DNA of 64,000 nt from contig CAIPHK010000041.1 of the NCBI GenBank assembly GCA_903864835.1, positions 25,693 to 89,692 on the forward strand. The letters run 5' to 3'. The notes below the pieces were generated by a model. It was not told the DNA's origin. It searched no databases and worked only from the letters and a program-made list of their open reading frames with translations. A program made the position numbers and the translations under genes. Numbering within the stretch: the stretch's first letter is position 1; each line of letters begins with the position of its first letter. The stretch is from an uncultured bacterium (GTDB lineage Bacteria; Margulisbacteria; Marinamargulisbacteria; SXXA01). Positions 1 through 36,851 of the stretch are shown here, one piece after another.

Positions 1-3000
1 ATTCTGCCGGTATCAAAATCAGCGATTTGTCCCATCCGTTCTTGGGCAATAAAGGAATCCACCATCGTCTTGGTCGAGTCAACCGTAGCCAATGTGTCCA
101 TCGACAACTCATCTGCACCCGACGCTGCTGAGGCCGCACCCAGTGCTTTCGACAATCCCATCAACCCTTGGGAATCCGACGGTGCCAAATTTTTGGTGAG
201 CCCGGTTAACAACGTATTTGCATAATTCGGCGCAACGGTGTCTAAGTCCTTGATTAAAATTGCCGCGCCATTCGGGTCGACTCTGGCAAAATCTTGAAAA
301 TCAGACCGCGCTTTATCGACCGCCGCCGGCCCACCCGTCAACATGATTTTGGCCGTCGTTTCCCTATCTTTTCTGGACATCGGGGCAAGGGGTCGGTCCC
401 CCTGGTAGCCTACCTTAATGGCGGTCACAAACCCTTCCTCCTTGCTCGACATTGCCGCTTTTACGTTGGGATCAGATTGGGCCGCGATCACCTGCTCGAT
501 AACTCTTTTGAACTCGTCCGGTGTATTAAGGGTGGGATCACTACTTCCTTCATCAATGCGAAGCCCCTCCGCACCGACTTTATACCCCAGTTTTTCAAGA
601 CTATGCATAACGGTGTCATCACCAGATTCCAATTTCAGCATGGTTTCGAGAAGGCGTTTTGCACCGGGCAAATACATTGCGGACCCTTCGGCTAATAATT
701 TAGCCAATAACCCGGCGCCCTCTGGGTCGGTCATTACCGCCGCCAACTTTGCGGGGGATCCCCCCAACTCGTTTGCCATAGATACCAACGCTTCGTCGCG
801 ATCCAGAGTCCCCCGCATCTCCGTCAAATGGTCGTCACTCATCTGATGCAGCTCGTCAGGTGCCGATTTCCCACTCAGCGCATCCGCGAAAATGGCCCTG
901 GCCTCTTGCTGCGCCTTTTTGTCCAATGACACCGTTTTGATAAATTGTTCGGACCGAACATCAGCTTGTCTCAAATATTGCTCAAACTCTTGCTGCTTAC
1001 CCAATCGACGCACTTCAAATCCCACCATCTGAATCACCATTGCGCCCGCTTCGCCACCGGTTCGTTTAATATTTCCCAGTAACTGGGTAATAGAGCCAAA
1101 ATCACCGGACGACGATAATTCAACGACCTGTCGCGCCACCGCATTCGCTCGCTTGGTCAGCTCAACATTGGCCGCCACTGGGTCGGTGTTGAATTTGCGA
1201 CTTAGGGAACTAAAATCGCTATTGAGGTGCATCTTGGTGTCTTTTGAATACGCCTCATACTGTTCTTTTCTAAGAATCATTCGGTCTTGCATTGTCTCCA
1301 CACGCAAGGGTTTTTCGATTCCGCGCTGAATCATTTCTTTGATTTCGATCACCATGTCGGCGACCCCATGGGTATCGCCGCGCTTCAATCGGGCCCGAAT
1401 TTCATCAGGAACTGCGGCTCCCGCCGCCGTCCTATCTGCGGATAAGGCTAAATTATGAAGGGCCAGCATCGATTCCCCTGACGTTGTTGCCAGAGTTGCT
1501 GGACGCCCTGCCCTCGAAATTCCAGAAACCATATCGCTTAGAAACTGACTCGGCAAATCGTTGCTGGCGTGGATCTGCCGCTCTGCAGCCTGATTATCAA
1601 TATGATCAAGCAAGGTATTCAGATCAGCCCCCGCAGAAACGTCGTCTGTTGCCCCTCCCATAGCCGTCGCCATACCCCTGATAAACGCCTCTCGCGACTC
1701 CGCGGTCATCGGCTTTTCTGATACAGAAAACTCCCTCACCTTAGCGGCGATCTGCACCAATTGTTCCCCGACCTGCGTCGCCTGCCCCGTCCCTAGTGTT
1801 CCAGTTTGAGTTTTAATCTCCTTAATTCGAGCAACAGCATCTTCGATTACGGTTGCCCCCCAATCTCTAGAACGACCATTTCCCTCAGCTCCCCCGGTTC
1901 CCACTTCACGCCCAACGATTTCAGCACCCGCAGTCACTGCAAACTTAGCAAAGTTTATTAACTGGGCATCCAATTTCTTCTCCGCCTCCGCTAACGCGTT
2001 TACTGCAAATAGTTGTTCAGCCCCCTTCAGCCGTGATGGAAGGTAGCGGCCCGACAACGTCGGGGCATCTACCCGGTCACGAGCCGCCTCAAACGCCGCA
2101 ACGGCTTTGTCTAACGAGACCTGCGCACGATCCATTCCACCCGCCCCCGTACCACCCGCAGCTACGGACTGCATCAACTGGGTCATTGCGCGTGGATCAA
2201 GCGCGCTGGTCATCCGGTCCATATCCGTTTCTTCCATATGCAGCGCTAATTTACCAAAGCCCTCAATACTACTGAGCTGGCTTGCAACCGCTCCGGCCAT
2301 TCGGGCTTCTACGGCTTGCACATTGGATGAATCGACGAATCCTTCACCATCAGTAACCGCTGACCGCTGAAAAACAAAATCGGCCACCTGACCACGCCAC
2401 CCTCTTCCCATAGCCGCCCGACGGACGTCCGATCCCCCCGACCCTAACGAATCCGCAAAAGTGTCCCCGACCTGTTTCGCGCTCACTCCAGGTCCTCCGC
2501 CAAATAAAACATCGGAAATCGAGTGTTTGATCCGAGTCCCTACATCAGCATCATCCGCGGTAACTTCAGATCCTCCGCCAAAAACAACATCGGAAATCGA
2601 GCGTTTGATCCGAGTCCCTACGCCAGCAGCCATCGTTAAGCCCGCAGTTCGGCCAACCTCCGCCCTCGGGTTGGCTTTTTCAACGGCAGTAGACACCGCT
2701 TCTCCCAAACCGCTCATTACCTCGTCATTACCGGAATATCGAGCAATCGTTACTTCCATCATCCGTTTAAACCTCGCGGACCCGTACGCCTTGTCTTGAA
2801 CCGCAAGATCTTGCATGACCCGAGACACCAATTCTCGTCCCGATTTGCCCGCACCCAAGGCTCCCTTGATCATCTCTGATGCCCGTTTTTCGTCGCGAGA
2901 CACAATTAAATTAGTTAGCTCTGCCCGGAACACGGTTTCCACGTGATTCATCATGTGCAAGTTGAGATCCCGACCTTTTTCCATCTCCTGGGTGGTGGTA

Positions 3001-6000
3001 TAGCGATTACCCTCCCCTAGAACCGATTCTGAATCCAGTCTAAACACCCCGCCATCACGGAATCCTTCCTTTAAGGTTCCGTCGAGCTTCCTTACCGCAT
3101 CCTGCGCGTCTGCAAATACAATCGCAAGATCCTTCCCACGCGCCTCGAATCGAGTGGTACCCAATGCAGAATCTTTAAAATCTAAAAAACCAATCGCCGC
3201 TCGCCGGCGATCAAACCCACGTCCTTCGGCGGCATATGCATCGTCGCGTTGTTTGCCAATCTCACGCCCATCATGGGCAAGAAAACGGAAGGCTACATTG
3301 GTCAAATCACTTCTCTGCAAGGCATTCTCTTTCAAAGAAAACGAATACGCTTCCAGTGCACTTTGGCGCACGGCTAACCCCGTATCTTCCACTTTTACGA
3401 GAAGTGCCAAAACGGACGCCGCCGCAGTTTCGTTTCCATGCGCCTTGGCAATCGCAAGCAGTTTCTCTCCCCGTTCCTTTTGAGCCGTCATCAAGTCCCC
3501 CTTGCTCACCGATACTTTCAGGCGGTCCATCAGATCTTGAGTCGCTTTTCCGGTTAAGACATCCATCACCCGTTGGGCTTTTGCACTATCCCCTTTAAAC
3601 TTGTCGTTCAACTGGGTCATGAGTGTGGCCTGAGCAGCCGCATCTCCTTTAAATTTTCCAAGCGCTCTCTCATCCAACGCATGGGTCCCAACATCAGAGT
3701 CCCCTTTATTTTTAAATTGAGCGCCTCGACCCCCTAAATTGCCAGTCGCTCGACCTACCCCCCGAACCGCCGATCCAACCGCCGATGCGACCGCCGAAAT
3801 AGGGCCACTGCCTACCCTAATATTGCCTCGAGAATCAGTGTCTGCCAGGTTCAAGGTCACTAGCGATAAAAATCCACGGCCGGCCGTCTGAACGCCTCTG
3901 AGGTCCGTAGGGACCACGCTGCGGGAATCGCCCAACCCGTTGGCATCGAGCACCGCCTGAGCACTTTTTAAATCAGCGCGAGACAATCCCGACTGATCCA
4001 AGGTTGTCCCCGCGAGCCGTGCACTCACAGCCAAACTCATGTTATAGCTCGACATCCCGATAAGGGTTTGCTCCAAACTACTCAACGCCACCGCAATATC
4101 TCGTTGAAGATTGAGTTTTGATTTGCTGTCCTGAAGGAACAACGCGTCCCCGGTTGTTTCAAATTTATTCCCCGCACCATTGGGCCCCAAAGCGGCCTGA
4201 ACCTTGGCATCTGCAAAATTTAAGGATGAGCCCTTCTCGATCAAAATGGTCCGTTCGCTCCCTGGGATATCGGCACCAGTATGATCTTTTTCTTTTACAG
4301 TATGGGCCTCAAAATTCGATAGGGATTCCCCTTCTAACCGTGCCCGAAGGACCGGATTACCCGTCGCATCCATGGTCAATACCTTGGCACGCTCCAAATT
4401 CTGCGTTGGGGCCAACGCAGCGGTACGGCGGTCCATCAAAACCTGGCTCTCCGGTGACAGCGAAAAACGTGCCGCCACGGGATCTTTTACATCAACGCCA
4501 AAGTGGGCCTGAACCTCATCCGACGCCAAGTCGACATGAACGCCCCGTTCCATCAATACCGTCCGAGAATCTCCTGGGGCTCCCCCTGGGCGGGCCATCG
4601 TCACCCCCACAAATTTACTCAAGTCACCATCCTTCTTGGGATCCAACGCACGCAGTATGGTTTTGCCATCTTTATCCACCGTCGCCACAACAAACGTCCC
4701 GGCGGTGGTATTTGCGACCCCCTGCAAATGGGACTCTGCGTGAGCGACCACCTCTTTTTCCAGAGCACGATCTTTCAAGAATCCACTAGCCCCATCCATT
4801 TCGTCATGAGCCGCCTGTACGTCAATTACGGCACTTCCACGAGAGAGGGCGACTGCAACCGATGAGAGACTACTGTCCGACCCCGCCTTGGTCGTCAGAG
4901 TTCGGTTGCCGGAGGCATCCTTACCCACAGTAACGATGAGATCCTCGGCCTCTCGACGAACAGGCAGCATCTGAGCGACTTGGCTGGCTGACCCAGTCAA
5001 GAACTTCATCGCGGTGCCCGTAGCAGCCGCAGCGGCCGCCGAATCGCTGGCCATTGAAACCTCTAATTGGCCGATCTTGGCGCCCAACTCCGCGGAACGA
5101 AGGTCCTTTTCCGTCGATTTATCAAAGAATGCCTCAGTCGCAATATGGAGACGTTGTTCTTTTTCTTTGAGCTCTTTTATTTCTTGGACTAACGTCTCCT
5201 GTTTGTCAATCCGGCGTTGAGCGTCCTTTGATGCATTCATCTCGAGTTTAGCGACACCCTCCAGCCTAAGCGCTTCCTCATTCCCGGCAGCACGATGTCC
5301 GTTTGCGGCAATAGTGAACTTCGCATCTTTACCCGCCTGTTCCTCTTTTTTAACAAGCTCCAACCTTACATAGCTAAGCTCTGCAGAAGTAGCATGTCCA
5401 CTATCCCAAGCAGCGTCGCCATCTGCGCGAACCACAGCTAGTTCCGCCCTTAATGCAGCCAGTCTGACAGCAGGGCTCGCAAGTTCCTCAGAGAGGGCGA
5501 CTGCAACCGATGAGAGACTACTGTCCGACCCCGCCTTGGTCGTCAGAGTTCGGTTGCCGGAGGCATCCTTACCCACAGTAACCGACATTCCTCGCAATTC
5601 TCTGTCGGCCGCAACCAATTGCGCTACTTGACTTGCGTGCCCCATTAAGAACGTACTTGCAGTACCTGTAGCGACAGCCAATGTCCTTGACTCTTTCTCC
5701 ATTTGAGACGCAACTACTTGCTTGGATAGATGAACTTCCTCGGCGGACAACTCCTCAATCCTAGATTTTAAGCTTAACTCCGTACTCGACGTTTTTTTGG
5801 AGTCTGCAGTCAATGTGTTTACCACGATCTGTTGTGAACGAATTTCCGCTTTTTTTTCCGCAATGGCCCTGGCCTCTGGGGAATTCTTATATTCTTGTAA
5901 CAACTCCTTGGATTTATCCAAGTGTGCCTGAGAACGCGCCGCTACATCCGCGATCCCTTCCGTTTTTGTAGAAATCTCATTCGTTTGCCTGGCAACTTTC

Positions 6001-9000: not shown

Positions 9001-12000
9001 GCCCCCGCCTGGTCATATATTTGACCCAAGTCCAAAAGTTGCTGCTGCCGGACCTGATACCCAAACTGGAGCAATGAATTGGCAAACATGGCGGTTTCAA
9101 GCTGCCCAGTGTCCAAAAAGCCCAGGCTCCCTTCGGTCTTTCCTCCTTTGGCTGGCGCCCCTGATTTCTCTCCCCCCTGTTGTTGGATGTTACCCCCGTC
9201 ACTCAAATAATCCCCTTCTTGCAACCCAAAATCGGCCTCGTCCGTCGAAAACATGGGGGACTGCGCGCCCATCAGACTGTCAGGCGCTAGGGCTTGAGAC
9301 AGGGCTTCCACCATGATCAAGGCTAACGTTGGCCCCATTAATTCCAATACATCTGCGGCAATTTCCCAATTGCGTGCCTGCGCATTTAATTGCTCAGAAC
9401 TCGATTTTTTGGCATTTTGAGAAATATCTCCACTCGCCTTTTTATCGGTAGACGCCGGTTTCTCGGCAGGCTTTTCCGTGTCCTGAGATCCTTCTACATT
9501 GTCGTCAACCCCAGCCTCTTCCGTACTCCCACCGGTTTTCGTCGCCGTTTGCTGTTTGGCTTTTTGTTGCAGGTCACCGGCCTTGTTGGCCATTGCCTTC
9601 GCCCCCTCCTGCACCGCGGTGGTCATGACGCCCGTCACCCCTTTTACCATCATGTCGACGCCTCGGTTATACGACTCTACCTCAGCGCCTAGCGCTTTAA
9701 AAATAATGCCAACGGCTTGCTGTTCTAAGTTCGTTTGTTGACTCAGAATAGAATTCATCCCCCGGTACACATTTTTAGCCGACGGCCCGCCCCCCATATC
9801 CTCTGCAGCGTCCCCTTTTGCATCCGACATGGCCATAGAAATATCTCGCAATACCTGGATGGAGCGGGACTTTCGACTCACCAGTTTCTCCATTCGCACC
9901 TGATCTCCGGTGTTTACCTTTTGTTTAATCCCTTGGGATTCCTTGCTGCCAGACCCATCTAAGCCCAAATTGGGGGCCGCCCCCGTCTTTGTTCCGCCAT
10001 CCGCCGGGTTTTTGGCATCAAAATTAACCGAGCTATCCGCAGGGGTCCCCCTCAGCTTGGCATTTTTTTTCTGCTCCGCCTCAGAGTCATTGGGATTGAC
10101 TGGCGCCTCTTCCGGATCCTCTTCATAATTCAATAGTTCGGATGTAATTTGTGGATGGTTCGCAACAACGGATTTCATCATGGCAACGCCCACCGCAATT
10201 CTTGCAAAATTCGCAGCTAACCCCGCGATCATTGTGCCGCTGACCATCTTCCGTGCCATTTTCAAATAACTGGCATCGGACAACCCCCCTGACTTGGCCA
10301 ATTTCACCGCTTTGGTATACGTCCGAGCCCCCGCAACACCCGCAAAGATAAGGTTGGCCGCAATCAGACTCCCCTCAATCGAAGTATTAATCTCGCCCAA
10401 AGTCCGATCATTAATCGCGCCCATGCGGGACTCAGCTTCCGAAATAAAATCCTGAAATATGCCCGTTTGTCCGACCATCGAGCCCATGATCGACCCCACA
10501 TATCGATCAATCCCGGAGGCCATGACACTTAATGCCCCATGTCCCCCTCCCGCATTCCCCCCGAACATTGATCTCAGCGCATTCTGCTTCGCGTTATACA
10601 TTGCTTGATCAATCATCGTCATAAAGGTTCGGACTTGATTGATTTGGGTCATTTGTTTGTACGCATCAAGTACTTTTTCAAAATCTACTTGCTGAAAATT
10701 TCCCCCAATGCCCGCAAGACTACTCGAATCCGTCAAAATCGTATTAGGATCTTTAATACTATTGAGTATCTGAGCCTCTTCTTCGTCCATCTTGGCGTAC
10801 TTCCCATACTGAGAGGCAATCCGAGCGACCGTCCCGGACGCCACCGGAGACGGGAACAAATTGGGATCCATATTTAAATTTTCAAATATTTTTGCGTTCG
10901 AGGTCTTTTCTTGATCAAATTTATCGGGGTCTGCGTTCTCCAGCCGAGATACAAAATCCTTGTTCACCGCAGAATTCTTGTATGGGTCGGTGGAATCATA
11001 ATCAATGTTCGTGAATCCAAATTTCCCCCAAGTTCTATTGGCTAACATCGCAGCTTCTTCCGCAGCAAACCCAAATTTAAGGCCCTCTTCAACCGCAACA
11101 TACGTTGTAAACAACACGGCCTCTCCCAAAGGTACCGGGACAATGGAATAAAAAAATTCGCCGAGGGCCCTGGCGGTTTGAACCACTGCTTTTGCGGTGG
11201 CTCGTCCCATTTCAACCGTTTGGTTGTATTCCTTTTGTTCTTTGGCCCACTGGCTATTAATCGTCGCCACTCGGGTTTGGGTTTCATACCGAAATGTATC
11301 GATAATGCTCGATTCTTTACCAATAATCGCATCCACTTGGCCATCAAAATTGGATACGGTCGACGTTTTTCCACGACCAAACATTGTTGCTGTCACACCC
11401 TCCATTGCGTCCTGGAGGACCTTCAGGATACTCAGATAGATAGACACCCTCATATAGTTTGTCGACGTCGCTAACTGATGGGAGGCCATCGCATCCCCCT
11501 TTAGAACCGCCCTGCCATCCCCACGAGTCGCAATAAAGTCGGTGGTCGACATATTTGTTTCGCCATTTTTTCCGTCTTGCAACGAATACGTAAATCCGCC
11601 ACCTGCATCCAGGCTGCTAGCCCCTTTTGCGCTATCGTATTGGGTACGTGAGTCATATAACAACGAATCCATTTTTCCGATGTAATAGTCTGCGGTGGAT
11701 TCATCGTAAGGATTCACACTGTCCTGATTGAGCTTCGCTAGGTTCGCATCCTTAAGCAACTGCTCCGCATTAGCGCTATTTCCATAAAAATCGCCCTCTT
11801 GGACCATTAGATTGGTATTTCGTTCCTTTATCTTATTCAATTCCAAATCATAATAAATGCCTTGGGCAATCGCGCTCATACCTGCCGATGCCGCATCGGG
11901 AACCGCATTCGACCAATAATCGCCGTTTATTTCCCCGAACAACACCCAACCTACGGGATCAATAGGGACAAAGAGGGGGGGAGGGGCAAACACAATCAAG

Positions 12001-14561
12001 CTCGCCGCTTTCGCTGAAAGGGATGCAACGGGGGCATAAACTGCCGATGCAACTTGGAGAGCGATCTCCGCCACCGTCTGGATCTTGGCCGCGAGATCTT
12101 TGTACCACCGCGCGTATTTATATCGCCCATCAATGTACCCATTTGCCGCTTCGACAAATGGCCGAGTCGCAAAATCAATTTGGGACAATCCCGCGCTTTG
12201 TCGCTGTATTTCAGTCGACATTGCATTGACGACCACGCTCTTTGTCTGGGTAGTAGAACTGGTATTTTTGGCGCCTTCCTCCAACCCCGATGTCGCAGAA
12301 ATCTGTTCCGCAACTTGCCGTTTAGCGGAATTCTCAGCTTCTGTAATCATATACGTCGACCGTATAAAATTCTGATAATCCACCATATAATCGCGTAAAC
12401 GAAGAATGTAATTCATCCCCATTTCTGCGTATTGGCCTTGATCCCCAGCTCGCCCCAGTAAATTTAAATTATTAGCTGCAACCGACGCTGATTTACTGTT
12501 GGTATCATCCTGCCCAACCCCCAGAGACGCCCCGAAGTCCCCCGATGTTGAATCAAAATGGCTCTCCATAGCTTCTAATTGATCGAGCCCGCGTTGCAAC
12601 GTGTTCTGGATCTTGGTCTTGTTATTGATCGCCGAAAAGCCATCCATATTATCAACGGCATTGGATCCAAAATTTAAAAAACTATCGGTATTGGTCAGAT
12701 TAGATCTCTCCGTCGGATTCAACGCATCATTGTCCCACAGCGAAATACCCTCCCCAAATTTCATGGTATACCGAACATATGCCTGCGCGTTCTCTAAATT
12801 GACCTTCGCCATAGTCGCGTTCAGATCCAGCGACGCAGTGGCCCGAACAAACGAAAACGCCCCTGAAATTTCATCCGCAAGCCCTGACAAAATTCCGGTC
12901 GCCAGATTCTCCCGTCCGTATTCTTCCAGCTCGGCGCTAATTCGGGCCTGTTGGGCCCCATTCGTCCCGGAAATAAATATGAACATTTCGTTAACCACCG
13001 TCTCAATGGACGAACTAATTTTCCCCAAGGAATTGTTCATCGCGTTGACAAAGCGATTTTTGAATTTACCGGTGGACCCCATGGTCTCTAAAAGTTCTGA
13101 TTTTTGATAATCTTCGAACCCGGACACCGCAATCTCAGCCGCCTGGTGTTCGTCATATTCCAACACCATATTGATCACGTTAAACATCATCACCGCTCGG
13201 TTAATTAAATCCCGAGATTGGGTCATAAAGTCATAAAATGCCTGTTCATTCAGCGTCGTCACATACATGTCGGAATGCCAGGAATTTCCAAAATCTGCAA
13301 TTCTCGTCTTGGTCAGTGTATAAAACCCAAAATCCACCGAAGTCCCATCCCATCCGGGATGTTGGGTAATATTTTTTTCGACTCCGGTGACGGAATCGAG
13401 ATAGGTAAAGCCAGTCCCATCGGCATTGGCGAGGGGCACCTCCACCGGGTTCTCCAACAAGGCTTTTAAAGTCGTTAATTTCTCATTGATACTTTCAACG
13501 CCGTGCTCAACATCAAAATATTTGGCATTCGACGCCGTCTCAAAAAACTCATCAATCGCCTTATATTGTTTAAATGTCGTGTCGTTGCCTTCCAGCACCA
13601 ACAGCATATTTAAGGAATCAAAGGCAACGGGTGGCTTATCAGTAGTCGCGTCCAACGACAGAGATTTTCCATTATCCAATACAAATTTGACGGTTGCGTG
13701 GCCTTTGGCGGCCCCCGTTTTGTCCACCAAATATCCTGCGGCCAATGTTACTTTGCTATGGATATCCGCATCAGACACCCCTGATTTAGACAACGCCCCC
13801 ATCAGCAATGACGCAGTCAGAACCGACAAATCCTCGCAATCGCCTCCCCGAGCAGCCATCGTTTCGTTAATAGTGTTCCAGTGATCCGCCGGTTTCCCTT
13901 CCACCGCCACCCCATCTGAAATATATTTAAAATTGGTCTGAACGTAGGTTGTCACGGCCGCCGCGATATCCGATTCAGACATCCCTTTTTTAAGGGTGCC
14001 GGCGCGGGTCATTTCTTCTAAAATCGTTTGAATATTTGAGTCTTTCGGGGAAATAAGCCCCACGCCATTCCGATATTTAACCTCGGTGGGGGTATAGCCA
14101 TTCTCCGCCATGGATTCTTTTCGAAATTCATCTGCGGCTACCGTTAGTGGATCCGGCGTCGGGCTCATCGTGGTTACATGGGCCATCACCGTCTGGACCT
14201 CTGCAGACGAGATCCCTAATCGATTAATCGTCCCTGGAGTCGTCAGTTTTTTAAGCGCTTCGCAGACGAGGGCCTTAGCACCCGGTGTTGGCACCACACC
14301 TCGGGTTGCAAATTCGGTCACCGCGGCAGTTTGTGCTGTTGTTAAGCCCGATTCGGCCGTCCCGGCCCAATTCACAATTACTTTACGAAGCCACGAATCA
14401 GAAATTCCCGGGGTCGTCAGACCAGCGGAATCGCCTTTCGTCGGCGCTCCGGTTGTTGGCTCTACAAACGGCGAATACCCGGCATTGACGCCGGGTGTTG
14501 TTGCGGGAGAAACCCCGCCCTTTAGAACTCGAAATTGATCATCGAGATTGGGTGCCCACAC
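1..14561 (-). CDS. Giant protein, 5' partial in window (about 4,850 codons; 3' end lies beyond position 1); N-terminal transglutaminase-like Cys/His domain, central Lys/Glu/Ala-rich coiled-coil-like region, internal repeats
   Basis: Reverse-complement reading frame is open from GTG at 14561-14559 (in-frame TAA just upstream, AGGAAG 7 nt before the GTG) to position 1. All seven minus-strand ORFs the track lists inside this span share one other frame (end coordinate mod 3 = 1) and are 112 aa or shorter; plus-strand ORFs are short Arg/Pro-rich shadows. Hand translation gives protein-like sequence throughout. Absent from the ORF track because no stop lies inside the window. Confidence 0.8.
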   Translation of the reverse strand, partial: MWAPNLDDQFRVLKGGVSPATTPGVNAGYSPFVEPTTGAPTKGDSAGLTTPGISDSWLRKVIVNWAGTAESGLTTAQTAAVTEFATRGVVPTPGAKALVCEALKKLTTPGTINRLGISSAEVQTVMAHVTTMSPTPDPLTVAADEFRKESMAENGYTPTEVKYRNGVGLISPKDSNIQTILEEMTRAGTLKKGMSESDIAAAVTTYVQTNFKYISDGVAVEGKPADHWNTINETMAARGGDCEDLSVLTASLLMGALSKSGVSDADIHSKVTLAAGYLVDKTGAAKGHATVKFVLDNGKSLSLDATTDKPPVAFDSLNMLLVLEGNDTTFKQYKAIDEFFETASNAKYFDVEHGVESINEKLTTLKALLENPVEVPLANADGTGFTYLDSVTGVEKNITQHPGWDGTSVDFGFYTLTKTRIADFGNSWHSDMYVTTLNEQAFYDFMTQSRDLINRAVMMFNVINMVLEYDEHQAAEIAVSGFEDYQKSELLETMGSTGKFKNRFVNAMNNSLGKISSSIETVVNEMFIFISGTNGAQQARISAELEEYGRENLATGILSGLADEISGAFSFVRATASLDLNATMAKVNLENAQAYVRYTMKFGEGISLWDNDALNPTERSNLTNTDSFLNFGSNAVDNMDGFSAINNKTKIQNTLQRGLDQLEAMESHFDSTSGDFGASLGVGQDDTNSKSASVAANNLNLLGRAGDQGQYAEMGMNYILRLRDYMVDYQNFIRSTYMITEAENSAKRQVAEQISATSGLEEGAKNTSSTTQTKSVVVNAMSTEIQRQSAGLSQIDFATRPFVEAANGYIDGRYKYARWYKDLAAKIQTVAEIALQVASAVYAPVASLSAKAASLIVFAPPPLFVPIDPVGWVLFGEINGDYWSNAVPDAASAGMSAIAQGIYYDLELNKIKERNTNLMVQEGDFYGNSANAEQLLKDANLAKLNQDSVNPYDESTADYYIGKMDSLLYDSRTQYDSAKGASSLDAGGGFTYSLQDGKNGETNMSTTDFIATRGDGRAVLKGDAMASHQLATSTNYMRVSIYLSILKVLQDAMEGVTATMFGRGKTSTVSNFDGQVDAIIGKESSIIDTFRYETQTRVATINSQWAKEQKEYNQTVEMGRATAKAVVQTARALGEFFYSIVPVPLGEAVLFTTYVAVEEGLKFGFAAEEAAMLANRTWGKFGFTNIDYDSTDPYKNSAVNKDFVSRLENADPDKFDQEKTSNAKIFENLNMDPNLFPSPVASGTVARIASQYGKYAKMDEEEAQILNSIKDPNTILTDSSSLAGIGGNFQQVDFEKVLDAYKQMTQINQVRTFMTMIDQAMYNAKQNALRSMFGGNAGGGHGALSVMASGIDRYVGSIMGSMVGQTGIFQDFISEAESRMGAINDRTLGEINTSIEGSLIAANLIFAGVAGARTYTKAVKLAKSGGLSDASYLKMARKMVSGTMIAGLAANFARIAVGVAMMKSVVANHPQITSELLNYEEDPEEAPVNPNDSEAEQKKNAKLRGTPADSSVNFDAKNPADGGTKTGAAPNLGLDGSGSKESQGIKQKVNTGDQVRMEKLVSRKSRSIQVLRDISMAMSDAKGDAAEDMGGGPSAKNVYRGMNSILSQQTNLEQQAVGIIFKALGAEVESYNRGVDMMVKGVTGVMTTAVQEGAKAMANKAGDLQQKAKQQTATKTGGSTEEAGVDDNVEGSQDTEKPAEKPASTDKKASGDISQNAKKSSSEQLNAQARNWEIAADVLELMGPTLALIMVEALSQALAPDSLMGAQSPMFSTDEADFGLQEGDYLSDGGNIQQQGGEKSGAPAKGGKTEGSLGFLDTGQLETAMFANSLLQFGYQVRQQQLLDLGQIYDQAGAATANKLKGMAKKAIQDHVQKNAKVEEDKAADNLVKEHGEEALTKMVMDAMTQTAAPAPQPGGQGLRLGERASVGRNMFDVLSGKGGPSGQSNAERRLIQKLIMGVADSVAKEHIEVANLNKQKNDKTDTKNYDPNWVNKTAGGSVTAKAVVDDLRAGVMTRAKAQDVRNGSTRSEGQMGAAEAGLVGIIQGRDALEKMDGFEKSIKGRELDAPEALAAFKDAKKDLQVLLDTSTGSKSGIMRAAATLGADDTVVALALKNMAVGSSALPELKPVTAGVRGALSLGRGVFSLGGAAIRGIGGAASAIAAPGAMGRAYGAITAPGAMRNAGMSAIGGIRNGLGSVAGGLWRGSGAVVGGMGSAASYVGGAIKNQAGASTAIMKDGKYTAYFMGLDAGARTQLLEAEFTKAGGGTLSPGLKALASNMAESADRKGFQAKADALLAKVQGASAKIQDSIARGNAATTVSPTGSKVTVVDLDAQTKGGAAAAAATEVHMEAGPRVLAGLFAQTHGAAGAGVGDAPIVQMVQGANDKMTAQLVDRVDPSTHTEVLVTNPDNPAQQIRVAVPGGASASAVAEAQGKRLGEVRWDLAQLRREAEVHTNLTAASGVLKTKEGELRALEAALPAGGSGGRGSGAQEKSLGTALAMEANAANKTLQGMTQQLAKDKLQLRLAQRKSEKLEAIAAQEDEKAKQLRAEVTAGRPSVDFVALMRRNADGADLKAGQHLAEAAEHGADALKHGSAVKTHQQAVTDLNVRFGGLSEAEVAQKKELNQLKSDSETRLNAAKIELKRAERSLQAAKTPADTFRRQLDEKRAEEAKLRIEASVLRTKGKPDVNGAIKKERAAVVAEQHVIRLRGVLINLDVSSYEERKTREREVAKATAVLAYLKQKAELEVSAVKKILDDTNKELKTTNLELSKQLTKLSKFQGRERDSLAKAVESQGLADDAGTRATQMRADALDLEANGVARAGLRLQMVEKAESDAAQHRTNANDQRAVVSDFEAKVARQTNEISTKTEGIADVAARSQAHLDKSKELLQEYKNSPEARAIAEKKAEIRSQQIVVNTLTADSKKTSSTELSLKSRIEELSAEEVHLSKQVVASQMEKESRTLAVATGTASTFLMGHASQVAQLVAADRELRGMSVTVGKDASGNRTLTTKAGSDSSLSSVAVALSEELASPAVRLAALRAELAVVRADGDAAWDSGHATSAELSYVRLELVKKEEQAGKDAKFTIAANGHRAAGNEEALRLEGVAKLEMNASKDAQRRIDKQETLVQEIKELKEKEQRLHIATEAFFDKSTEKDLRSAELGAKIGQLEVSMASDSAAAAAATGTAMKFLTGSASQVAQMLPVRREAEDLIVTVGKDASGNRTLTTKAGSDSSLSSVAVALSRGSAVIDVQAAHDEMDGASGFLKDRALEKEVVAHAESHLQGVANTTAGTFVVATVDKDGKTILRALDPKKDGDLSKFVGVTMARPGGAPGDSRTVLMERGVHVDLASDEVQAHFGVDVKDPVAARFSLSPESQVLMDRRTAALAPTQNLERAKVLTMDATGNPVLRARLEGESLSNFEAHTVKEKDHTGADIPGSERTILIEKGSSLNFADAKVQAALGPNGAGNKFETTGDALFLQDSKSKLNLQRDIAVALSSLEQTLIGMSSYNMSLAVSARLAGTTLDQSGLSRADLKSAQAVLDANGLGDSRSVVPTDLRGVQTAGRGFLSLVTLNLADTDSRGNIRVGSGPISAVASAVGSAVRGVGRATGNLGGRGAQFKNKGDSDVGTHALDERALGKFKGDAAAQATLMTQLNDKFKGDSAKAQRVMDVLTGKATQDLMDRLKVSVSKGDLMTAQKERGEKLLAIAKAHGNETAAASVLALLVKVEDTGLAVRQSALEAYSFSLKENALQRSDLTNVAFRFLAHDGREIGKQRDDAYAAEGRGFDRRRAAIGFLDFKDSALGTTRFEARGKDLAIVFADAQDAVRKLDGTLKEGFRDGGVFRLDSESVLGEGNRYTTTQEMEKGRDLNLHMMNHVETVFRAELTNLIVSRDEKRASEMIKGALGAGKSGRELVSRVMQDLAVQDKAYGSARFKRMMEVTIARYSGNDEVMSGLGEAVSTAVEKANPRAEVGRTAGLTMAAGVGTRIKRSISDVVFGGGSEVTADDADVGTRIKHSISDVLFGGGPGVSAKQVGDTFADSLGSGGSDVRRAAMGRGWRGQVADFVFQRSAVTDGEGFVDSSNVQAVEARMAGAVASQLSSIEGFGKLALHMEETDMDRMTSALDPRAMTQLMQSVAAGGTGAGGMDRAQVSLDKAVAAFEAARDRVDAPTLSGRYLPSRLKGAEQLFAVNALAEAEKKLDAQLINFAKFAVTAGAEIVGREVGTGGAEGNGRSRDWGATVIEDAVARIKEIKTQTGTLGTGQATQVGEQLVQIAAKVREFSVSEKPMTAESREAFIRGMATAMGGATDDVSAGADLNTLLDHIDNQAAERQIHASNDLPSQFLSDMVSGISRAGRPATLATTSGESMLALHNLALSADRTAAGAAVPDEIRARLKRGDTHGVADMVIEIKEMIQRGIEKPLRVETMQDRMILRKEQYEAYSKDTKMHLNSDFSSLSRKFNTDPVAANVELTKRANAVARQVVELSSSGDFGSITQLLGNIKRTGGEAGAMVIQMVGFEVRRLGKQQEFEQYLRQADVRSEQFIKTVSLDKKAQQEARAIFADALSGKSAPDELHQMSDDHLTEMRGTLDRDEALVSMANELGGSPAKLAAVMTDPEGAGLLAKLLAEGSAMYLPGAKRLLETMLKLESGDDTVMHSLEKLGYKVGAEGLRIDEGSSDPTLNTPDEFKRVIEQVIAAQSDPNVKAAMSSKEEGFVTAIKVGYQGDRPLAPMSRKDRETTAKIMLTGGPAAVDKARSDFQDFARVDPNGAAILIKDLDTVAPNYANTLLTGLTKNLAPSDSQGLMGLSKALGAASAASGADELSMDTLATVDSTKTMVDSFIAQERMGQIADFDTGR
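2493..2621. repeat. Imperfect tandem duplication (two ~51-nt copies, 78-nt period) inside the giant gene, encoding repeated GTRIK(R/H)SISDV(V/L)FGGG
   Basis: tcctccgccaaa..atcggaaatcgag(t/c)gtttgatccgagtccctac occurs at 2493-2543 and 2571-2621. Confidence 0.7.
4843..4934. repeat. Copy 1 of a perfect 92-nt direct repeat inside the giant gene
   Basis: gagagggcgactgcaaccgatgagagactactgtccgaccccgccttggtcgtcagagttcggttgccggaggcatccttacccacagtaac is identical at 4843-4934 and 5491-5582; encodes VTVGKDASGNRTLTTKAGSDSSLSSVAVALS twice. Confidence 0.85.
5491..5582. repeat. Copy 2 of the perfect 92-nt direct repeat inside the giant gene
   Basis: Identical to 4843-4934; flanks are related but diverged, so the identical core sits within a diverged ~650-nt repeat unit. 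Confidence 0.85.
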
Positions 14562-14585
14562 GATGCCACTTCCTTTCAGAAATTT

Positions 14586-14614
14586 TTAAAAAAACCCACC
14601 TGAATTTATTCAGT
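14586..14614 (-). terminator. Weak hairpin plus T7 tract between gatB and the giant gene (possible attenuator or terminator)
   Basis: Minus-strand sequence ctgaataaattcag (palindromic) followed by gtggg and ttttttt, located just upstream of the giant gene SD. Stem is AT-rich, so weak. Confidence 0.2.
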
Positions 14615-14707
14615 AAATTGGGACGCGTAACAGATACACGTATAGCGGTCAGGTCCAACGCCCCATGGGGTTATTCCCGGATCGGAACACCCCAAAACAT
14701 ATTAAAA

Positions 14708-18015: not shown

Positions 18016-19134
18016 TTAACTCACCGAACACCCGCATCCCTGTGGCTGAGTCAACGAATTTAACATGGCTTTTTTCCCTGCTTTTAGCGACGGATTCGAC
18101 CACAACTGTGTAATCGCGGGACGCAGCATAGTGCAGGATTCTTGCCATATCGGATTCCCCACCAATTTCATACCCGCATCCTTAAAAACGAAGACAAGAT
18201 CCGACTCCAACGGTTTTAATTGTGCGGCGTCGGAATCAAGGAAATAATTCTTCACCATATCCAAAATGTCGGCCGCATGGCCCACGCAACTCAATCGCTT
18301 ATTTTCCGATAAAACAGCCTGATTCTGCTTGTAAAACGTGGTCATATTCTTCAATGTCGTTACCACCAGGTTGGCGGCCTGCCCGTCCTCCATCCGAATC
18401 GACATTTCGACAAAAAGGGACCCTGCGGTCAATGCCGACTCTGTCCACCGTTTTGTCTGACCCATGCAACACACGACCTCCTGGGTCCGACTCCGCCAAT
18501 CCGGAAGACGCGAATCCGCAAACGGCTCGCCATACACAAGGTCTTGCCGAATCCCAAGATCCACCAATTTAAGCCGATAATGCGCCGAATACGGCGTCAA
18601 CATCACAAATCGGGAATCAACGGATGGGAGCTCAGCCAAAGAAATCGCCTGTTGGTAAAAATGCCGCGCAAAATCGTAAGACTGAGCAGCAATGGTTCGA
18701 TCCGACCTCATCGCCAAATCACCATACTCCGAATAATTTAAACCCAGTTCAAAATATACGTCGGTCTGTAGCTCTGAAGATGCCGACCCCCACATCGGGC
18801 CATTCACGACGGGCAACAAACACTCAATCGCAGCCGTGGGGTTACCTTGACCCCGAGACGTCCTCGCGCTCTCTAGCGATTCTGCCGGGGAAATCGACCT
18901 AAATACCGGGGGCGGTACCACCGTCGCATAGAGCGGCGGGTTTACTTCTATTGGAGTAATATACGACGCCTTACCGACAAGGTCCCCCGAGGTGGTATCT
19001 TGTATCGCAATGGCGGTCGGGACCGGGTACATCCATTCCATTGGAGGTGCAGACGGCTCCGGGCTTCCTGACCACGTGCACGCAACACTCCTCTTCATAA
19101 GGCAATTAATTCCCATAATGAACCCTCCCAACAA
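18016..19134 (-). CDS. Hypothetical protein (372 aa)
   Basis: Long ORF between the 1,835-aa gene and gatC, same strand; no motif recognised. Confidence 0.5.
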   Translation of the reverse strand: MLGGFIMGINCLMKRSVACTWSGSPEPSAPPMEWMYPVPTAIAIQDTTSGDLVGKASYITPIEVNPPLYATVVPPPVFRSISPAESLESARTSRGQGNPTAAIECLLPVVNGPMWGSASSELQTDVYFELGLNYSEYGDLAMRSDRTIAAQSYDFARHFYQQAISLAELPSVDSRFVMLTPYSAHYRLKLVDLGIRQDLVYGEPFADSRLPDWRSRTQEVVCCMGQTKRWTESALTAGSLFVEMSIRMEDGQAANLVVTTLKNMTTFYKQNQAVLSENKRLSCVGHAADILDMVKNYFLDSDAAQLKPLESDLVFVFKDAGMKLVGNPIWQESCTMLRPAITQLWSNPSLKAGKKAMLNSLTQPQGCGCSVS

Positions 19135-31872: not shown

Positions 31873-31896
31873 TATTAAGTAAAAAGGGGTAACACC

Positions 31897-36840: not shown

Positions 36841-36851
36841 GACACCCCATC

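What the first reader, a model, noticed from the sequence alone, without database searches (positions are those of the whole stretch)
1..14561. Single giant gene (over 14.5 kb in window, still incomplete) hidden from the ORF track
The whole left quarter of the window is one minus-strand reading frame of about 4,850 codons that starts at GTG 14561 and has no stop before position 1. The ORF track shows only short shadow ORFs here because the gene runs off the edge. The protein has no obvious signal peptide, an N-terminal papain-fold-like motif, a Lys/Glu/Ala/Leu-rich coiled-coil-like stretch (roughly plus-strand 5200-7100), Gly/Ala-rich segments and internal repeats. Proteins of this size are rare and usually surface adhesins, toxins or effectors; this one does not look like a textbook RTX, NRPS/PKS or Ig-repeat adhesin.
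Basis: seen in the sequence. Interest (0 to 1): 0.8.

Follow-up and report, generated by a model that had tools for sequence, protein, structure and literature searches.

The report
Giant protein with LapG-like protease head
The left quarter of the window really is one enormous gene (5,320 codons in full, 4,853 of them in the window) from an uncultured freshwater bacterium. It belongs to an undescribed family of 4,000-7,800-residue proteins that start with a LapG-type cysteine protease and otherwise resemble nothing known.

Summary
Observation confirmed. The minus-strand frame from GTG 14561 to the left edge holds 4,853 codons with no stop. An identical database protein shows the full length is 5,320 aa, ending 467 codons beyond the window. 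The gene is real: codon usage is native, three related lineages carry an ortholog at the same place after gatCAB, and dN/dS is below 1.

Only one part is recognisable. Residues about 50-340 form a transglutaminase-fold cysteine protease closest to LapG, the calcium-dependent periplasmic protease that releases giant adhesins. Its Cys-His-Asp triad and Asp-Cys-Glu calcium motif do not vary among orthologs.

Next come four or five cryptic helical modules of about 285 aa, each with a conserved hydrophobic hairpin. This roughly 1,700-aa head is shared by at least 23 other giants, one of them labelled Margulisiibacteriota. The 3,600-aa tail (Gly/Ala-rich stretch, about 750-aa coiled coil) is lineage-specific and fast-evolving. 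A sister lineage with 95% identical GatB lacks about 1,200 aa of it.

In relatives the giant heads a conserved operon of orphan genes, two with membrane anchors.

Most likely it is an exported, envelope-anchored surface fibre with a processing protease. That mechanism is inferred, not shown. It is not an RTX, Ig-repeat or NRPS/PKS protein, and not a misassembly.

The parts
1..14561 (-). Giant ORF, codons 1-4853 of 5320. The last 467 codons and the stop lie beyond the left edge of the window.
   Evidence: 0 stops in 4,853 codons. Identical to P0033, 5,320 aa. P0032 ends at the same residue on a second contig.
14562..14707 (-). Conserved 146-nt gatB-giant intergenic leader, including AGGAAG (14569-14574) 7 nt before GTG 14561-14559. 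Probably a promoter or 5' UTR element.
   Evidence: Alignment of four lineages shows invariant boxes, conserved better than the coding sequence that follows. No sigma-70-like site was found. RNAalifold pairs CCGCU with AGUGG next to the SD, but nearly all pairs are invariant, so covariation gives no support.
14415..14561 (-). aa 1-49: predicted disordered N-terminal leader with a conserved MWA(P/S).. start. No hydrophobic signal peptide.
   Evidence: pLDDT 31-41. The MWA motif recurs in many family members.
13542..14414 (-). aa 50-340: helical subdomain plus a LapG/BTLCP-like transglutaminase-fold cysteine protease core. Cys242 = 13836-13838, His288 = 13698-13700, Asp304 = 13650-13652. Asp241 and Glu243 flank the Cys as in the BTLCP calcium motif.
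   Evidence: Family profile against PDB: LapG 4fgo E 5e-14, 4u65 E 2e-12. The AF2 model has pLDDT mostly above 85 here. Foldseek top hits are LapG, prob 1.0, TM 0.57-0.61. G240, D241, C242 and D244 are invariant and E243 and H288 nearly invariant in 38 sequences. dN is 0.063 against 0.26 for the whole head.
9162..13301 (-). aa 421 to ~1800: four to five cryptic tandem ~285-aa alpha-helical modules (about 421-699, 700-982, 983-1275, 1276-1550, 1551 to ~1800). Each has a small beta-hairpin, very long helices and a hydrophobic helical hairpin (aa ~828-880, 1118-1167, 1395-1466, 1733-1751). This is the conserved family 'head'.
   Evidence: hhalign of family sub-profiles: M2-M3 94% (E 1e-7), M3-M4 92.5%, M1-M2 85%, M2-M4 78%. 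AF2 secondary structure (mean pLDDT only 58). Hydropathy of the protein itself and family-averaged. About 20 distant giants align across aa 400-1700.
7662..8261 (-). aa 2101-2300: Gly/Ala-rich segment (A 20-22%, G 17-22%).
   Evidence: Composition table.
4104..7667 (-). aa ~2299-3486: lineage-specific insertion holding the coiled-coil-like stalk (aa ~2440-3200, window ~4962-7244) and the short repeats. It is absent from the complete 3,987-aa ortholog P0155.
   Evidence: blastp of P0155 against P0033: 1-2235>1-2298, 2257-2890>3487-4110, 2873-3984>4181-5316. Charged residues 37-42% and G+P at or below 7% over aa 2501-2900.
4842..5582 (.). Exact 93-nt direct repeat (4842-4934 and 5490-5582, 648 nt apart), encoding aa ~3210-3240 and ~2994-3024.
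   Evidence: the repeat finder. blastp of tiles.
2478..2628 (.). 78-nt tandem duplication, 1.9 copies, 87% matches (aa ~3978-4028, GTRIK.SISDV.FGGG).
   Evidence: Tandem Repeats Finder.
1..1220 (-). aa 4448-4853: start of the conserved C-terminal region, which continues to aa 5320 outside the window.
   Evidence: P0158 and P0159 align to aa 4448-4800. The C-terminal fragment in L099 aligns to aa 4741-5320 and ends at the same residue. P0155 is 48% identical over 4181-5316.

Best explanation
SHOWN. This is a genuine, native gene under selection, encoding a 5,320-aa protein. It comes from an uncultured diderm bacterium of oxygen-stratified freshwater lakes, probably Margulisiibacteriota or a close relative. 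It belongs to an undescribed family of giant proteins (about 4,000-7,800 aa).

The family is defined by a conserved ~1,700-aa 'head'. The head consists of a short disordered leader without a signal peptide, a LapG/BTLCP-type transglutaminase-fold cysteine protease with an intact Cys-His-Asp triad and Asp-Cys-Glu calcium motif, and four to five cryptic ~285-aa helical modules, each with a hydrophobic hairpin.

The remaining ~3,600 aa form a lineage-specific 'tail' that evolves fast and changes by large insertions and deletions. In relatives the gene is the first of a translationally coupled operon. In the closest lineages this is a second large orphan (1,282-1,732 aa), then four small orphans of ~312, ~90, ~210 and ~270 aa. 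The ~90-aa and ~270-aa proteins carry an N-terminal membrane anchor.

INFERRED. The protein is exported by a route other than a Sec signal peptide and held at the cell envelope through its head. The hydrophobic hairpins would insert into or dock on a membrane, and the small operon partners would act as export or anchoring factors. The variable tail, with its coiled-coil stalk, would project from the cell as a surface fibre that contacts other cells or particles.

The calcium-type protease would be inactive in the low-calcium cytoplasm and switch on outside it. There it would process the giant itself or a partner, for maturation or release, much as LapG releases LapA. Its cleavage specificity must differ from LapG's.
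For: Real gene:
- 0 stops in 4,853 codons.
- GC3 is 0.52, as in the housekeeping genes, and RSCU correlates at r 0.69-0.75.
- Orthologs sit right after gatB in L090, L094 and L097, with a conserved start and leader.
- NG86 dN/dS is about 0.2 for the head, 0.04 for the protease and 0.3 for the C-terminal part, with dS about 1.0-1.7.

Family:
- The exhaustive HMMER search gave 87 hits at E <= 1e-3 and 27 at E <= 1e-30, including 23 proteins of 4,057-7,805 aa.
- About 20 distant members are colinear with aa ~400-1700; others share only the protease core.

Protease. The defining BTLCP features are taken from PMC13090378.

Modules and hydrophobic hairpins.

Extracytoplasmic or surface role:
- Characterised BTLCP enzymes are calcium-dependent periplasmic proteases (PMC13090378, PMC3032545).
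- The tail diverges much faster than housekeeping genes. GatB is 95% identical to the L097 lineage, but the giant is 58/51/48% identical in its three aligned blocks and differs by a ~1,200-aa indel. This pattern is typical of surface-exposed or conflict proteins.
- The coiled-coil stalk composition fits a projecting fibre.

Operon:
- L097: giant > 1282 > 312 > 88 > 214 > 274, with overlapping stops and starts.
- L099 and L100 show the same order. In L099 the upstream ORF matches our aa 4741-5320.
- L098 (Margulisiibacteriota MAG) and a JGI contig: giant > 312/315 > 98/113 > 194/218 > 267/275.
- Homology between L097 and L098: E 8e-25 for the 312-aa protein and E 5e-12 for the 274/267-aa protein.

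Taxon:
- Family member P0167 is labelled Candidatus Margulisiibacteriota.
- GatB relatives with that label are 60-63% identical.
- LPS and O-antigen genes in the window point to a diderm envelope.
- Margulisbacteria are reported to be enriched in huge, unannotated proteins.
Against: - No export signal or secretion machinery was identified. There is no signal peptide, no RTX or T1SS signature, no T9SS or other sorting domain, and no secretion genes in the window or in the related loci examined.
- The operon partners match nothing known, so their role is a guess.
- The downstream operon was seen only in relatives. The same region of this genome lies outside the window.
- One family member (L096, P0161) has no such genes downstream.
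- The hydrophobic hairpins are only borderline for transmembrane helices (KD19 1.3-1.7). They could be buried cores.
- The AF2 model of the modules is low confidence (mean pLDDT 58) and matches no PDB fold.
- No Ala-Ala dipeptide is conserved among the three orthologs in aa 1-2100, so canonical LapG-type [T/A/P]AAG self-cleavage in the head is unlikely.
- The window protein itself falls just below Pfam thresholds and does not hit PF06035 directly.
- There are no expression data.
Confidence: 0.45

Rival explanations
1. Self-releasing LapA-type adhesin. The giant would be a type 1 secretion substrate exported C-terminus first. Its folded N-terminal head would stay in the periplasm as the retention plug. 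The built-in LapG-like domain would cut the protein free, fusing the LapG and LapA roles in one polypeptide.
For: The N-terminal domain is closest, by profile and by fold, to LapG. There is no Sec signal. The protein is giant, like LapA-type adhesins. The calcium motif is kept.
Against: There are no RTX nonapeptides, no Ig-like/BIg repeats and no vWA domain. No T1SS ABC, MFP or TolC genes and no LapD-like gene appear in the window or in L096-L100. The only [TAP]AA[GV] sites (aa 78, 200, 4378, 4745) are not conserved in orthologs, and no Ala-Ala is conserved in aa 1-2100.
Confidence: 0.12
2. Delivered toxin or effector built like the large clostridial and MARTX toxins. A cofactor found only outside the producer would switch on the cysteine protease for autoprocessing. 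The helical modules with hydrophobic hairpins would form a membrane-translocation device, and the variable tail would carry payloads into a prey, host or competitor cell.
For: The general layout fits: a cysteine protease next to a ~1,300-aa helical region with conserved hydrophobic hairpins. The tail is lineage-specific and fast-evolving. There is no signal peptide.
Against: No toxin, effector, C80 CPD or receptor-binding domain is detectable. The tail looks structural (coiled coil, Gly/Ala-rich), not enzymatic. The downstream genes are conserved rather than variable, so they are not immunity genes. No target organism is known.
Confidence: 0.15
3. Intracellular giant scaffold or cytoskeleton-like protein, or an inner-membrane-anchored organiser, that is never exported. 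The transglutaminase-fold domain would act in the cytoplasm.
For: There is no signal peptide or recognised secretion signal. The gene sits among housekeeping genes (gatCAB, queA, tig-clpPX; nusA-infB in L096). It has long helices and coiled coil. Many transglutaminase-fold proteases are cytoplasmic.
Against: The closest relatives of the protease are periplasmic, calcium-dependent enzymes, and the calcium motif does not vary. Very fast divergence and a 1,200-aa indel between lineages with 95% identical GatB are unusual for a core cytoplasmic scaffold. One related lineage (L093) lacks the gene at this locus.
Confidence: 0.2
4. Not a functional gene: a misassembly of repeated units, a chimeric contig or a decaying pseudogene.
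For: Short-read contigs of this species repeatedly end inside the gene, and one carries a chimeric GGAGAC-repeat tail.
Against: The reading frame is intact for 5,320 codons on independent contigs. The sequence is almost repeat-free. Orthologs are under purifying selection. Codon usage is native.
Confidence: 0.01

Closest known systems
LapG / BTLCP proteases (Peptidase C93): P. fluorescens and L. pneumophila LapG, D. vulgaris DvhG
   Same: Transglutaminase-like fold. Cys-His-Asp triad. Asp-Cys-Glu calcium-binding motif around the catalytic Cys (GDCED). LapG is the best profile hit (E 5e-14) and the best fold hit.
   Different: LapG is a ~200-aa soluble periplasmic enzyme with a signal peptide. 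It is partnered with LapD and cuts a separate adhesin at [T/A/P]AAG. Here the domain is residues ~50-340 of a 5,320-aa protein without a signal peptide. No LapD or LapA partner is nearby and no conserved di-alanine site exists. The window protein does not reach the Pfam PF06035 threshold.
LapA-type giant RTX adhesins (type 1 secreted, BTLCP-linked)
   Same: Very large, no Sec signal, functionally linked to a LapG-type protease.
   Different: No Ig-like repeat array, no vWA domain, no RTX repeats, no N-terminal retention module with TAAG, and no adjacent T1SS genes.
Large clostridial toxins and MARTX toxins
   Same: Giant single polypeptides that combine a cysteine protease activated by a compartment-specific cofactor with a long helical region carrying hydrophobic membrane-insertion segments.
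   Different: The protease fold is different (C80 CPD there, transglutaminase/BTLCP here). No glucosyltransferase or effector domains, no CROPs or RTX-like repeats, no sequence or fold match. The resemblance is architectural only and comes from my own knowledge.
Giant proteins of Omnitrophota and other candidate phyla (bioRxiv 10.1101/2023.11.21.568195; PMC11573180)
   Same: Giant genes from uncultured bacteria, fragmented in short-read assemblies. Margulisbacteria are explicitly listed as enriched in proteins above 5,000 aa that have no COG assignment.
   Different: Those papers do not describe this family, its LapG-like head, its modules or its operon. 'Transglutaminase' does not occur in the main text of either paper.
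HvyA (Caulobacter BTLCP homolog that restricts capsulation; PMC4241560)
   Same: A BTLCP-family enzyme that acts on the cell envelope rather than on a LapA adhesin, which shows the family's roles extend beyond the Lap system (title and abstract seen).
   Different: A small stand-alone protein, not part of a giant. I did not compare it directly.

Membership tests
BTLCP / LapG family (Peptidase C93) | Cys-His-Asp catalytic triad in a transglutaminase-like core | tested here: met
   C242, H288 and D304 are invariant in the three orthologs. C242 is invariant and H288 nearly invariant in 38 family sequences. The profile aligns to the LapG core.
BTLCP / LapG family (Peptidase C93) | Calcium-binding motif next to the active site (Asp-Cys-Glu; DvhG D316/C317/E318) | tested here: met
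   The sequence is G240-D241-C242-E243-D244. D241 is invariant and E243 nearly invariant. The motif definition comes from PMC13090378. Calcium binding itself was not tested.
BTLCP / LapG family (Peptidase C93) | LapG-like three-dimensional fold | tested here: met
   The AF2 model has pLDDT mostly above 85 over aa 50-340. The six best Foldseek PDB hits are LapG chains, prob 1.00, target-normalised TM 0.57-0.61.
BTLCP / LapG family (Peptidase C93) | Match to the curated Pfam model PF06035 above threshold | tested here: not met
   The window protein gives only DUF553 at 19.8-20.2 bits (cut-off 20.5) and Transglut_core at 15-19 bits (cut-off 23). Of 38 family sequences, 6 hit PF06035 (best 1.8e-18) and 23 hit Transglut_core.
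BTLCP / LapG family (Peptidase C93) | Small periplasmic enzyme with signal peptide, LapD/DvhD-type receptor partner, substrate with [T/A/P]AAG site | tested here: not met
   There is no signal peptide. The domain sits inside a 5,320-aa protein. No LapD-like gene is in the window or related loci. No Ala-Ala is conserved in aa 1-2100.
LapA-type T1SS RTX adhesins | C-terminal RTX nonapeptide repeats and T1SS signal, with adjacent ABC/MFP/OMP genes | tested here: not met
   There is no GG.G.D motif anywhere in the 5,320 aa and no Pfam RTX hit. No T1SS genes appear in any locus examined.
LapA-type T1SS RTX adhesins | Long array of Ig-like/BIg or cadherin-like repeats | tested here: not met
   No such Pfam hits, even at E <= 1 on 640-aa tiles. 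Self-comparison finds only three short repeats.
NRPS / PKS megasynthases | Condensation, adenylation, KS, AT or carrier-protein domains | tested here: not met
   No Pfam or NCBIfam hits on the whole protein or on tiles.
Large clostridial / MARTX toxins | C80 cysteine protease domain, glucosyltransferase or effector domains, repeat regions | tested here: not met
   No Pfam hit, no PDB sequence hit, and no fold hit for aa 421-1620.
Undescribed family of giants with a LapG-like head (defined here) | Colinear head of ~1,700 aa: leader, LapG-like protease, ~285-aa helical modules | tested here: met
   This protein was the query, so the test is that about 20 distant giants align colinearly to aa ~1-1700 at 20-30% identity. 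The modules are supported by hhalign.
Undescribed family of giants with a LapG-like head (defined here) | Downstream cassette of ~312, ~90 (TM), ~210 (Pro-rich) and ~270 aa orphan genes | not testable with these tools
   The cassette lies beyond the left edge of the window. It is present after the orthologs in L097 and L099/L100 and after the distant members in L098 and a JGI contig, but absent in L096. The contigs of this species that span the gene's 3' end could not be fetched.

The most novel reading that the evidence does not exclude
The giant, the second large orphan and the four small orphan proteins would together form a previously unknown, Margulisiibacteriota-specific cell-surface apparatus. 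It would include its own dedicated export and anchoring machinery for a Sec-independent 5,000-8,000-aa fibre. The fibre's helical-module head would insert into a membrane. Its calcium-switched LapG-like domain would cut it for maturation or release. The hypervariable tail would mediate contact with partner, host or prey cells.
Probability: 0.2. Interest if true: 0.85.

Novelty: new variant of a known kind. Interest (0 to 1): 0.62.

Why it matters
Giant genes are among the least understood parts of microbial genomes. Margulisbacteria have been flagged as unusually rich in proteins above 5,000 aa that have no functional assignment at all.

This window gives a concrete handle on one such family:
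- a complete 5,320-aa sequence;
- a testable enzymatic domain, a calcium-type LapG-like cysteine protease with a known catalytic Cys;
- a defined repeat architecture;
- a conserved set of operon partners;
- evidence that the tail is a hotspot of rapid change between near-identical genomes.

If the protein is a surface fibre or delivery device, it would bear on how these uncultured relatives of Cyanobacteria interact with other cells. It would also extend the LapG protease paradigm from a separate regulator of adhesins to a built-in module of a giant protein.

On the practical side, the gene breaks short-read assemblies. It is therefore mostly invisible in MAG catalogues and missing from word-indexed protein searches.

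Tried and rejected
- Searching the whole 4,853-aa protein in the word-indexed database timed out.
- The N-terminal 1,500 aa found only the protein's own fragment, and the last 1,000 aa found nothing. That database is searched through cluster representatives, and the representative here is a 2,059-aa fragment. The apparent 'orphan' status was therefore an artefact, corrected by the exhaustive HMMER search.
- The genome-contig scan with the C-terminal 500 aa found nothing.
- A degenerate DNA pattern from the C-terminal region found nothing in JGI metagenomes.
- PHROGs, NCBIfam, PADLOC and PDB-sequence searches of the giant and of the cassette proteins were empty. This rejects phage tail/tape-measure, defence-system and known-family readings.
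A 27-sequence alignment was too large.
- The ortholog profile A1 against PDB gave only a weak LapG hit.
- A conserved di-alanine self-cleavage site was looked for and not found.
- The weak Pfam hits (Glyco_hydro_46, Hia Trp-ring, Mga, DUF7794, BibA_N and others, E 0.001-0.4) are all far below their cut-offs, and I treat them as noise.
- The 1,282-aa operon partner is not a split-off piece of the longer giants: phmmer against the family gave no hit.
Full report
1. THE OBSERVATION

The reverse complement of window 1-14561, read from GTG 14561, gives 4,853 sense codons and no stop. The other two minus-strand frames contain 273 and 299 stops. For a sequence of about 50% G+C this is far beyond chance, roughly (61/64)^4853 or about 1e-101 by my own arithmetic.

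An in-frame stop lies eight codons upstream. AGGAAG (14569-14574) sits 7 nt before the GTG. The ORF lister shows only short plus-strand shadows in this region, because ORFs that run off the source are not listed.

2. FULL LENGTH AND AUTHENTICITY

An exact-sequence look-up of neighbouring proteins and of the only database hit (P0001, a 2,059-aa fragment) gave a cluster member, P0033, of 5,320 aa on a 92-kb contig. P0033 is identical to the window protein over all 4,853 residues except V/M at the start codon, and continues for 467 residues.

P0032 is a strain variant with two substitutions. It comes from a different 14.6-kb contig, begins at an internal Met (aa 3376) and ends at the same residue. 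Its gene fragment takes only 5.8 kb of that contig, so the stop is genuine.

Short-read metagenome contigs of this species match the window at 99.96-100% identity. They repeatedly end inside the gene, near window 13914, 10536, 10483, 9129 and 8400. Contig L084 ends in a chimeric GGAGAC-repeat tail, and L001 carries the same 2,059-aa product. That explains why the gene is mostly seen as fragments.

The sequence itself is almost free of repeats:
- one exact 93-nt direct repeat, at 4842-4934 and 5490-5582;
- a 78-nt tandem of 1.9 copies at 2478-2628;
- one weak ~68-aa protein repeat.

Codon usage is native. GC3 is 0.52 against 0.52 for ten housekeeping genes of the window, and RSCU correlates at r 0.69-0.75. 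Misassembly and pseudogene readings are rejected.

3. ORGANISM AND SURROUNDINGS

Upstream on the same strand lie gatB, gatA and gatC, a 366-aa orphan, a 1,835-aa orphan with a signal peptide, queA and hemH. Then come tRNA-Gly, tig, clpP and clpX on the other strand. Further on are a CDP-sugar (O-antigen-type) cluster, an LPS heptosyltransferase and PEP carboxylase. The host is therefore a diderm bacterium, and the gene sits in a housekeeping neighbourhood.

The contigs come from assemblies labelled BUCK21-1. Two of the runs (ERR4195923, ERR4195039) are cited in a paper on Swedish lakes. From memory, this is the stratified-lakes data set of Buck et al. 2021.

GatB homologs form a graded series (94, 90, 85, 79, 76, 73, then about 65% identity). 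The nearest named ones are labelled just 'bacterium'. Several at 60-63% are labelled Candidatus Margulisbacteria or Margulisiibacteriota. One distant member of the giant's family is annotated as Candidatus Margulisiibacteriota.

The genome-contig scans did not help. I take the organism to be a Margulisiibacteriota-related lineage. That assignment is probable, not proven.

4. ORTHOLOGS AND EVOLUTIONARY RATE

The same position, directly after gatB, holds an ortholog in three related lineages.

| Locus | Identity of GatB to the window's | Giant at the same place |
|---|---|---|
| L097 | 95% | P0155, complete, 3,987 aa |
| L090 | 85% | at least 3,518 aa, cut by the contig end |
| L094 | 76% | at least 2,593 aa, cut by the contig end |
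| L093 | 73% | none; hemH-queA-orphan-orphan-gatCAB is kept |

Identity of the giant to its orthologs:
- P0155: 58%, 51% and 48% in three blocks;
- L090: 55% over aa 1-2100 and 38% over aa 3127-3583;
- L094: 38% over aa 1-2100.

P0155 lacks our aa ~2299-3486, which is the coiled-coil stalk and the short repeats. This region is therefore a lineage-specific insertion.

Nei-Gojobori estimates against L097:

| Region | dN | dS |
|---|---|---|
| gatB | 0.034 | 1.04 |
| gatA | 0.033 | 0.93 |
| giant head, aa 1-1700 | 0.26 | 1.29 |
| protease, aa 151-340 | 0.063 | 1.68 |
| C-terminal part | 0.44 | 1.40 |

(dS is near saturation, so the ratios are rough)

The gene is under purifying selection, so it is functional. 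Outside the protease domain it evolves 8-13 times faster than housekeeping genes.

5. THE FAMILY

Word-indexed searches suggested an orphan. This was an artefact: clusters are searched through their representative, here a fragment, and cut products are largely absent.

The exhaustive HMMER search with aa 1-1200 found 87 proteins at E <= 1e-3 and 27 at E <= 1e-30. Twenty-three of them are 4,057-7,805 aa long.

blastp shows about 20 of these giants are colinear with our aa ~1-1700 at 20-30% identity. Nothing beyond aa ~1800 is shared, except a block at aa 4448-4800 with P0158 and P0159. A second tier of ~2,000-3,700-aa proteins shares only the protease core.

All the giants looked up (20) are unnamed or 'hypothetical'. 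The one exception is an IMG label, 'predicted transglutaminase-like cysteine proteinase'. One 7,732-aa member has no Pfam domain at all.

The literature library holds no description of this family. It does report that Margulisbacteria are enriched in very large or huge proteins (above 5,000 aa in PMC11573180) without COG assignment.

6. THE ONE RECOGNISABLE DOMAIN

On the window protein, Pfam gives only sub-threshold transglutaminase-like hits at aa 190-260.

A 38-sequence family alignment of aa 1-420 shows G240, D241, C242 and D244 invariant, and Y213, W228, E243 and H288 nearly invariant. Its profile matches L. pneumophila LapG (4fgo, E 5e-14) and P. fluorescens LapG (4u65, E 2e-12).

AlphaFold2 with this alignment gives mean pLDDT 80.7. 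Most of aa 50-340 is above 85, and aa 1-49 is disordered. The six best Foldseek PDB hits are LapG chains (prob 1.00, target-normalised TM 0.57-0.61). Other transglutaminase-fold cysteine proteases follow (3isr, PeiP/PeiW, vasohibins).

According to PMC13090378, BTLCP activity depends on the C-H-D triad and an adjacent calcium site formed by the residues flanking the Cys. In DvhG these are D316 and E318 around C317. Substrates are cut at [T/A/P]AAG. Here the motif is D241-C242-E243, with H288 and D304, all invariant among orthologs.

Among the 38 family sequences, 23 hit Transglut_core, 16 hit DUF553 and 6 hit Peptidase_C93. The domain works like a LapG-type calcium-dependent cysteine protease. 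It is not a LapG ortholog, because:
- it has no signal peptide;
- it is embedded in a giant;
- it has no LapD or LapA partner nearby;
- no Ala-Ala dipeptide is conserved in aa 1-2100 of the orthologs.

7. THE REST OF THE HEAD

AF2 on aa 421-1620 used a 19-sequence alignment and is of low confidence (mean pLDDT 58, pTM 0.56). It predicts very long helices (40-70 residues) punctuated by small beta-hairpins at aa ~702, ~983-1020 and ~1276. Foldseek finds no significant PDB match; the best E is 0.066.

Profile-profile comparison of family sub-alignments shows the region is a cryptic tandem repeat of ~285 aa:

| Pair | Residues | Probability | E-value |
|---|---|---|---|
| M2-M3 | 700-982 vs 983-1275 | 94% | 1e-7 |
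| M3-M4 | 983-1275 vs 1276-1550 | 92.5% | 5e-7 |
| M1-M2 | 421-699 vs 700-982 | 85% | 7e-6 |
| M2-M4 | 700-982 vs 1276-1550 | 78% | 2e-5 |

The signal for a fifth unit is weaker.

For three of the modules (M2-M4), a hydrophobic hairpin lies about 120-150 residues after the module start, at aa ~828-880, 1118-1167 and 1395-1466; a fourth segment lies at aa 1733-1751. The first three are conserved in family-averaged hydropathy. Their hydrophobicity is borderline for transmembrane helices.

8. THE TAIL

From aa ~1700 onward there are low-complexity charged stretches, a Gly/Ala-rich block (aa 2101-2300), and a ~750-aa region with 37-42% charged residues (peak, aa 2501-2900) and few Gly or Pro (aa ~2440-3200). 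Then come mixed helical-looking sequence and a C-terminal region conserved among the closer relatives. There are no RTX motifs and no domain hits.

9. THE OPERON SEEN IN RELATIVES

Genes that follow the giant:

| Locus | Giant | Downstream genes (aa) |
|---|---|---|
| L097 | P0155, 3,987 aa | 1,282, 312, 88, 214, 274, with overlapping stops and starts |
| L099, L100 (JGI) | C-terminal fragment, 35% identical to our aa 4741-5320, same end (L099) | 1,732, 315, 88, 209, 274 |
| L098 (MAG labelled Margulisiibacteriota) | P0167, 6,902 aa | 312, 98, 194, 267 |
| JGI contig (metagenome 3300072015) | P0169, 7,055 aa | 315, 113, 218, 275, then tig-clpP-clpX |

The 312-aa and 270-aa proteins of L097 and L098 are homologous (E 8e-25 and 5e-12). 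The ~90-aa proteins share an N-terminal transmembrane helix followed by a coiled-coil-like segment. The ~210-aa proteins are Pro-rich with similar ends; L097 and L099 share conserved ends, and L098's is recognised only by position and shared features.

None of these proteins matches Pfam, NCBIfam, PADLOC or PDB sequences. One family member (L096) lacks the cassette.

For the window's own genome the cassette is inferred from orthology only, because it lies beyond the left edge.

10. INTERPRETATION

Shown:
- a real 5,320-aa gene;
- membership of an undescribed family of giants;
- a LapG-type protease head;
- cryptic helical modules with hydrophobic hairpins;
- a variable, fast-evolving tail;
- conserved operon partners in relatives.

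Inferred: export without a Sec signal, anchoring at the envelope through the head and the small membrane proteins, projection of the tail as a surface fibre for cell-cell or cell-particle contact, and calcium-gated proteolytic maturation or release. I put this at about 0.45.

Rivals:
- a cytoplasmic scaffold (0.2);
- a delivered toxin with the architecture of large clostridial or MARTX toxins (0.15);
- a self-releasing LapA-type T1SS adhesin (0.12);
- an artefact (0.01).

The main weaknesses are the absence of any identified secretion route, the low-confidence model of the modules, and the lack of expression data.

11. NOVELTY AND SCORE

The protease fold and the existence of giant genes in this phylum are both known. 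The following appear undescribed in the literature library I searched:
- the fusion of a LapG-type domain to the N-terminus of a giant;
- the ~285-aa module;
- the conserved orphan operon;
- the extreme divergence of the tail between near-identical genomes.

I rate it a new variant of a known kind, interest 0.62. There is roughly a 0.2 chance that the operon represents a new kind of surface or export apparatus, which would deserve about 0.85.

Noticed in passing
window 19193-24700 (-): A second large orphan gene (1,835 aa). It has a classic N-terminal signal peptide or anchor (MGSPIVRTIVALMTVLLVGVFAVSIAATTY) and an S/T/V/G/N-rich composition, and it overlaps the queA stop by 16 nt. It is conserved in the block hemH-queA-orphan-orphan-gatCAB in L090, L097 and L093 (81/72/50% identity where GatB is 95/85/73%). 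The only domain signal is a faint DUF2460 hit. Probably a large secreted surface protein.
   Followed up: partly
window 18016-19116 (-): A 366-aa orphan between the 1,835-aa gene and gatC. It evolves extremely fast: 65% identity to the lineage with 95% identical GatB, 35% to the 85% lineage, and barely detectable in the 73% lineage. No family hits.
   Followed up: partly
window 14562-14707: The gatB-giant intergenic region is better conserved across four lineages than the giant's coding sequence. The invariant boxes are GGGGCG..CCT.ACCGCTATACGTGTATCTG and AAGGAAGTGGCATCGTG. No sigma-70-like promoter was found. RNAalifold suggests the upstream box pairs next to the Shine-Dalgarno sequence, but nearly all pairs are invariant, so covariation gives no support.
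   Followed up: partly
window ~8400, ~9129, ~10483-10536, ~13914 (contig ends in L001/L084, L003/L086, L085/L087, L002): Independent short-read assemblies of this species break at recurrent points inside the giant gene. Contig L084 ends in a GGAGAC-repeat chimeric tail (L001 carries the same 2,059-aa product), and L002's last ~100 bases diverge. The cause is unknown: it could be strain-level variation or a coverage problem.
   Followed up: partly
L093 (GCA_013572995.1 JACCDX011265389.1), 11563-16465: In the lineage with 73% GatB identity the giant gene is absent after gatB. In its place are an S4-like protein, an alcohol-dehydrogenase-like protein and an 899-aa orphan on the opposite strand that shows no similarity to the giant.
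   Followed up: partly
window 34940-45675 and 46579-47901: A CDP-glucose pathway (cytidylyltransferase, 4,6-dehydratase, RfbH-like) with glycosyltransferases, plus an LPS heptosyltransferase-like gene. Together these are an O-antigen/LPS-type cluster, which indicates a diderm envelope.
   Followed up: no
JGI metagenome 3300072015 contig (no DNA held); window 30583-33821: In a distant family member the giant and its four-gene cassette are followed directly by tig-clpP-clpX. In the window the same trio lies 16 kb upstream of the giant's start, on the opposite strand. This may be a remnant of deep synteny.
   Followed up: no
P0163 (MFC1751961.1) and P0080: A 6,680-aa family member, and a GatB 61% identical to the window's, are both labelled 'Thermoproteota archaeon' in NCBI. 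That is probably a mis-binned or mislabelled bacterial contig.
   Followed up: no
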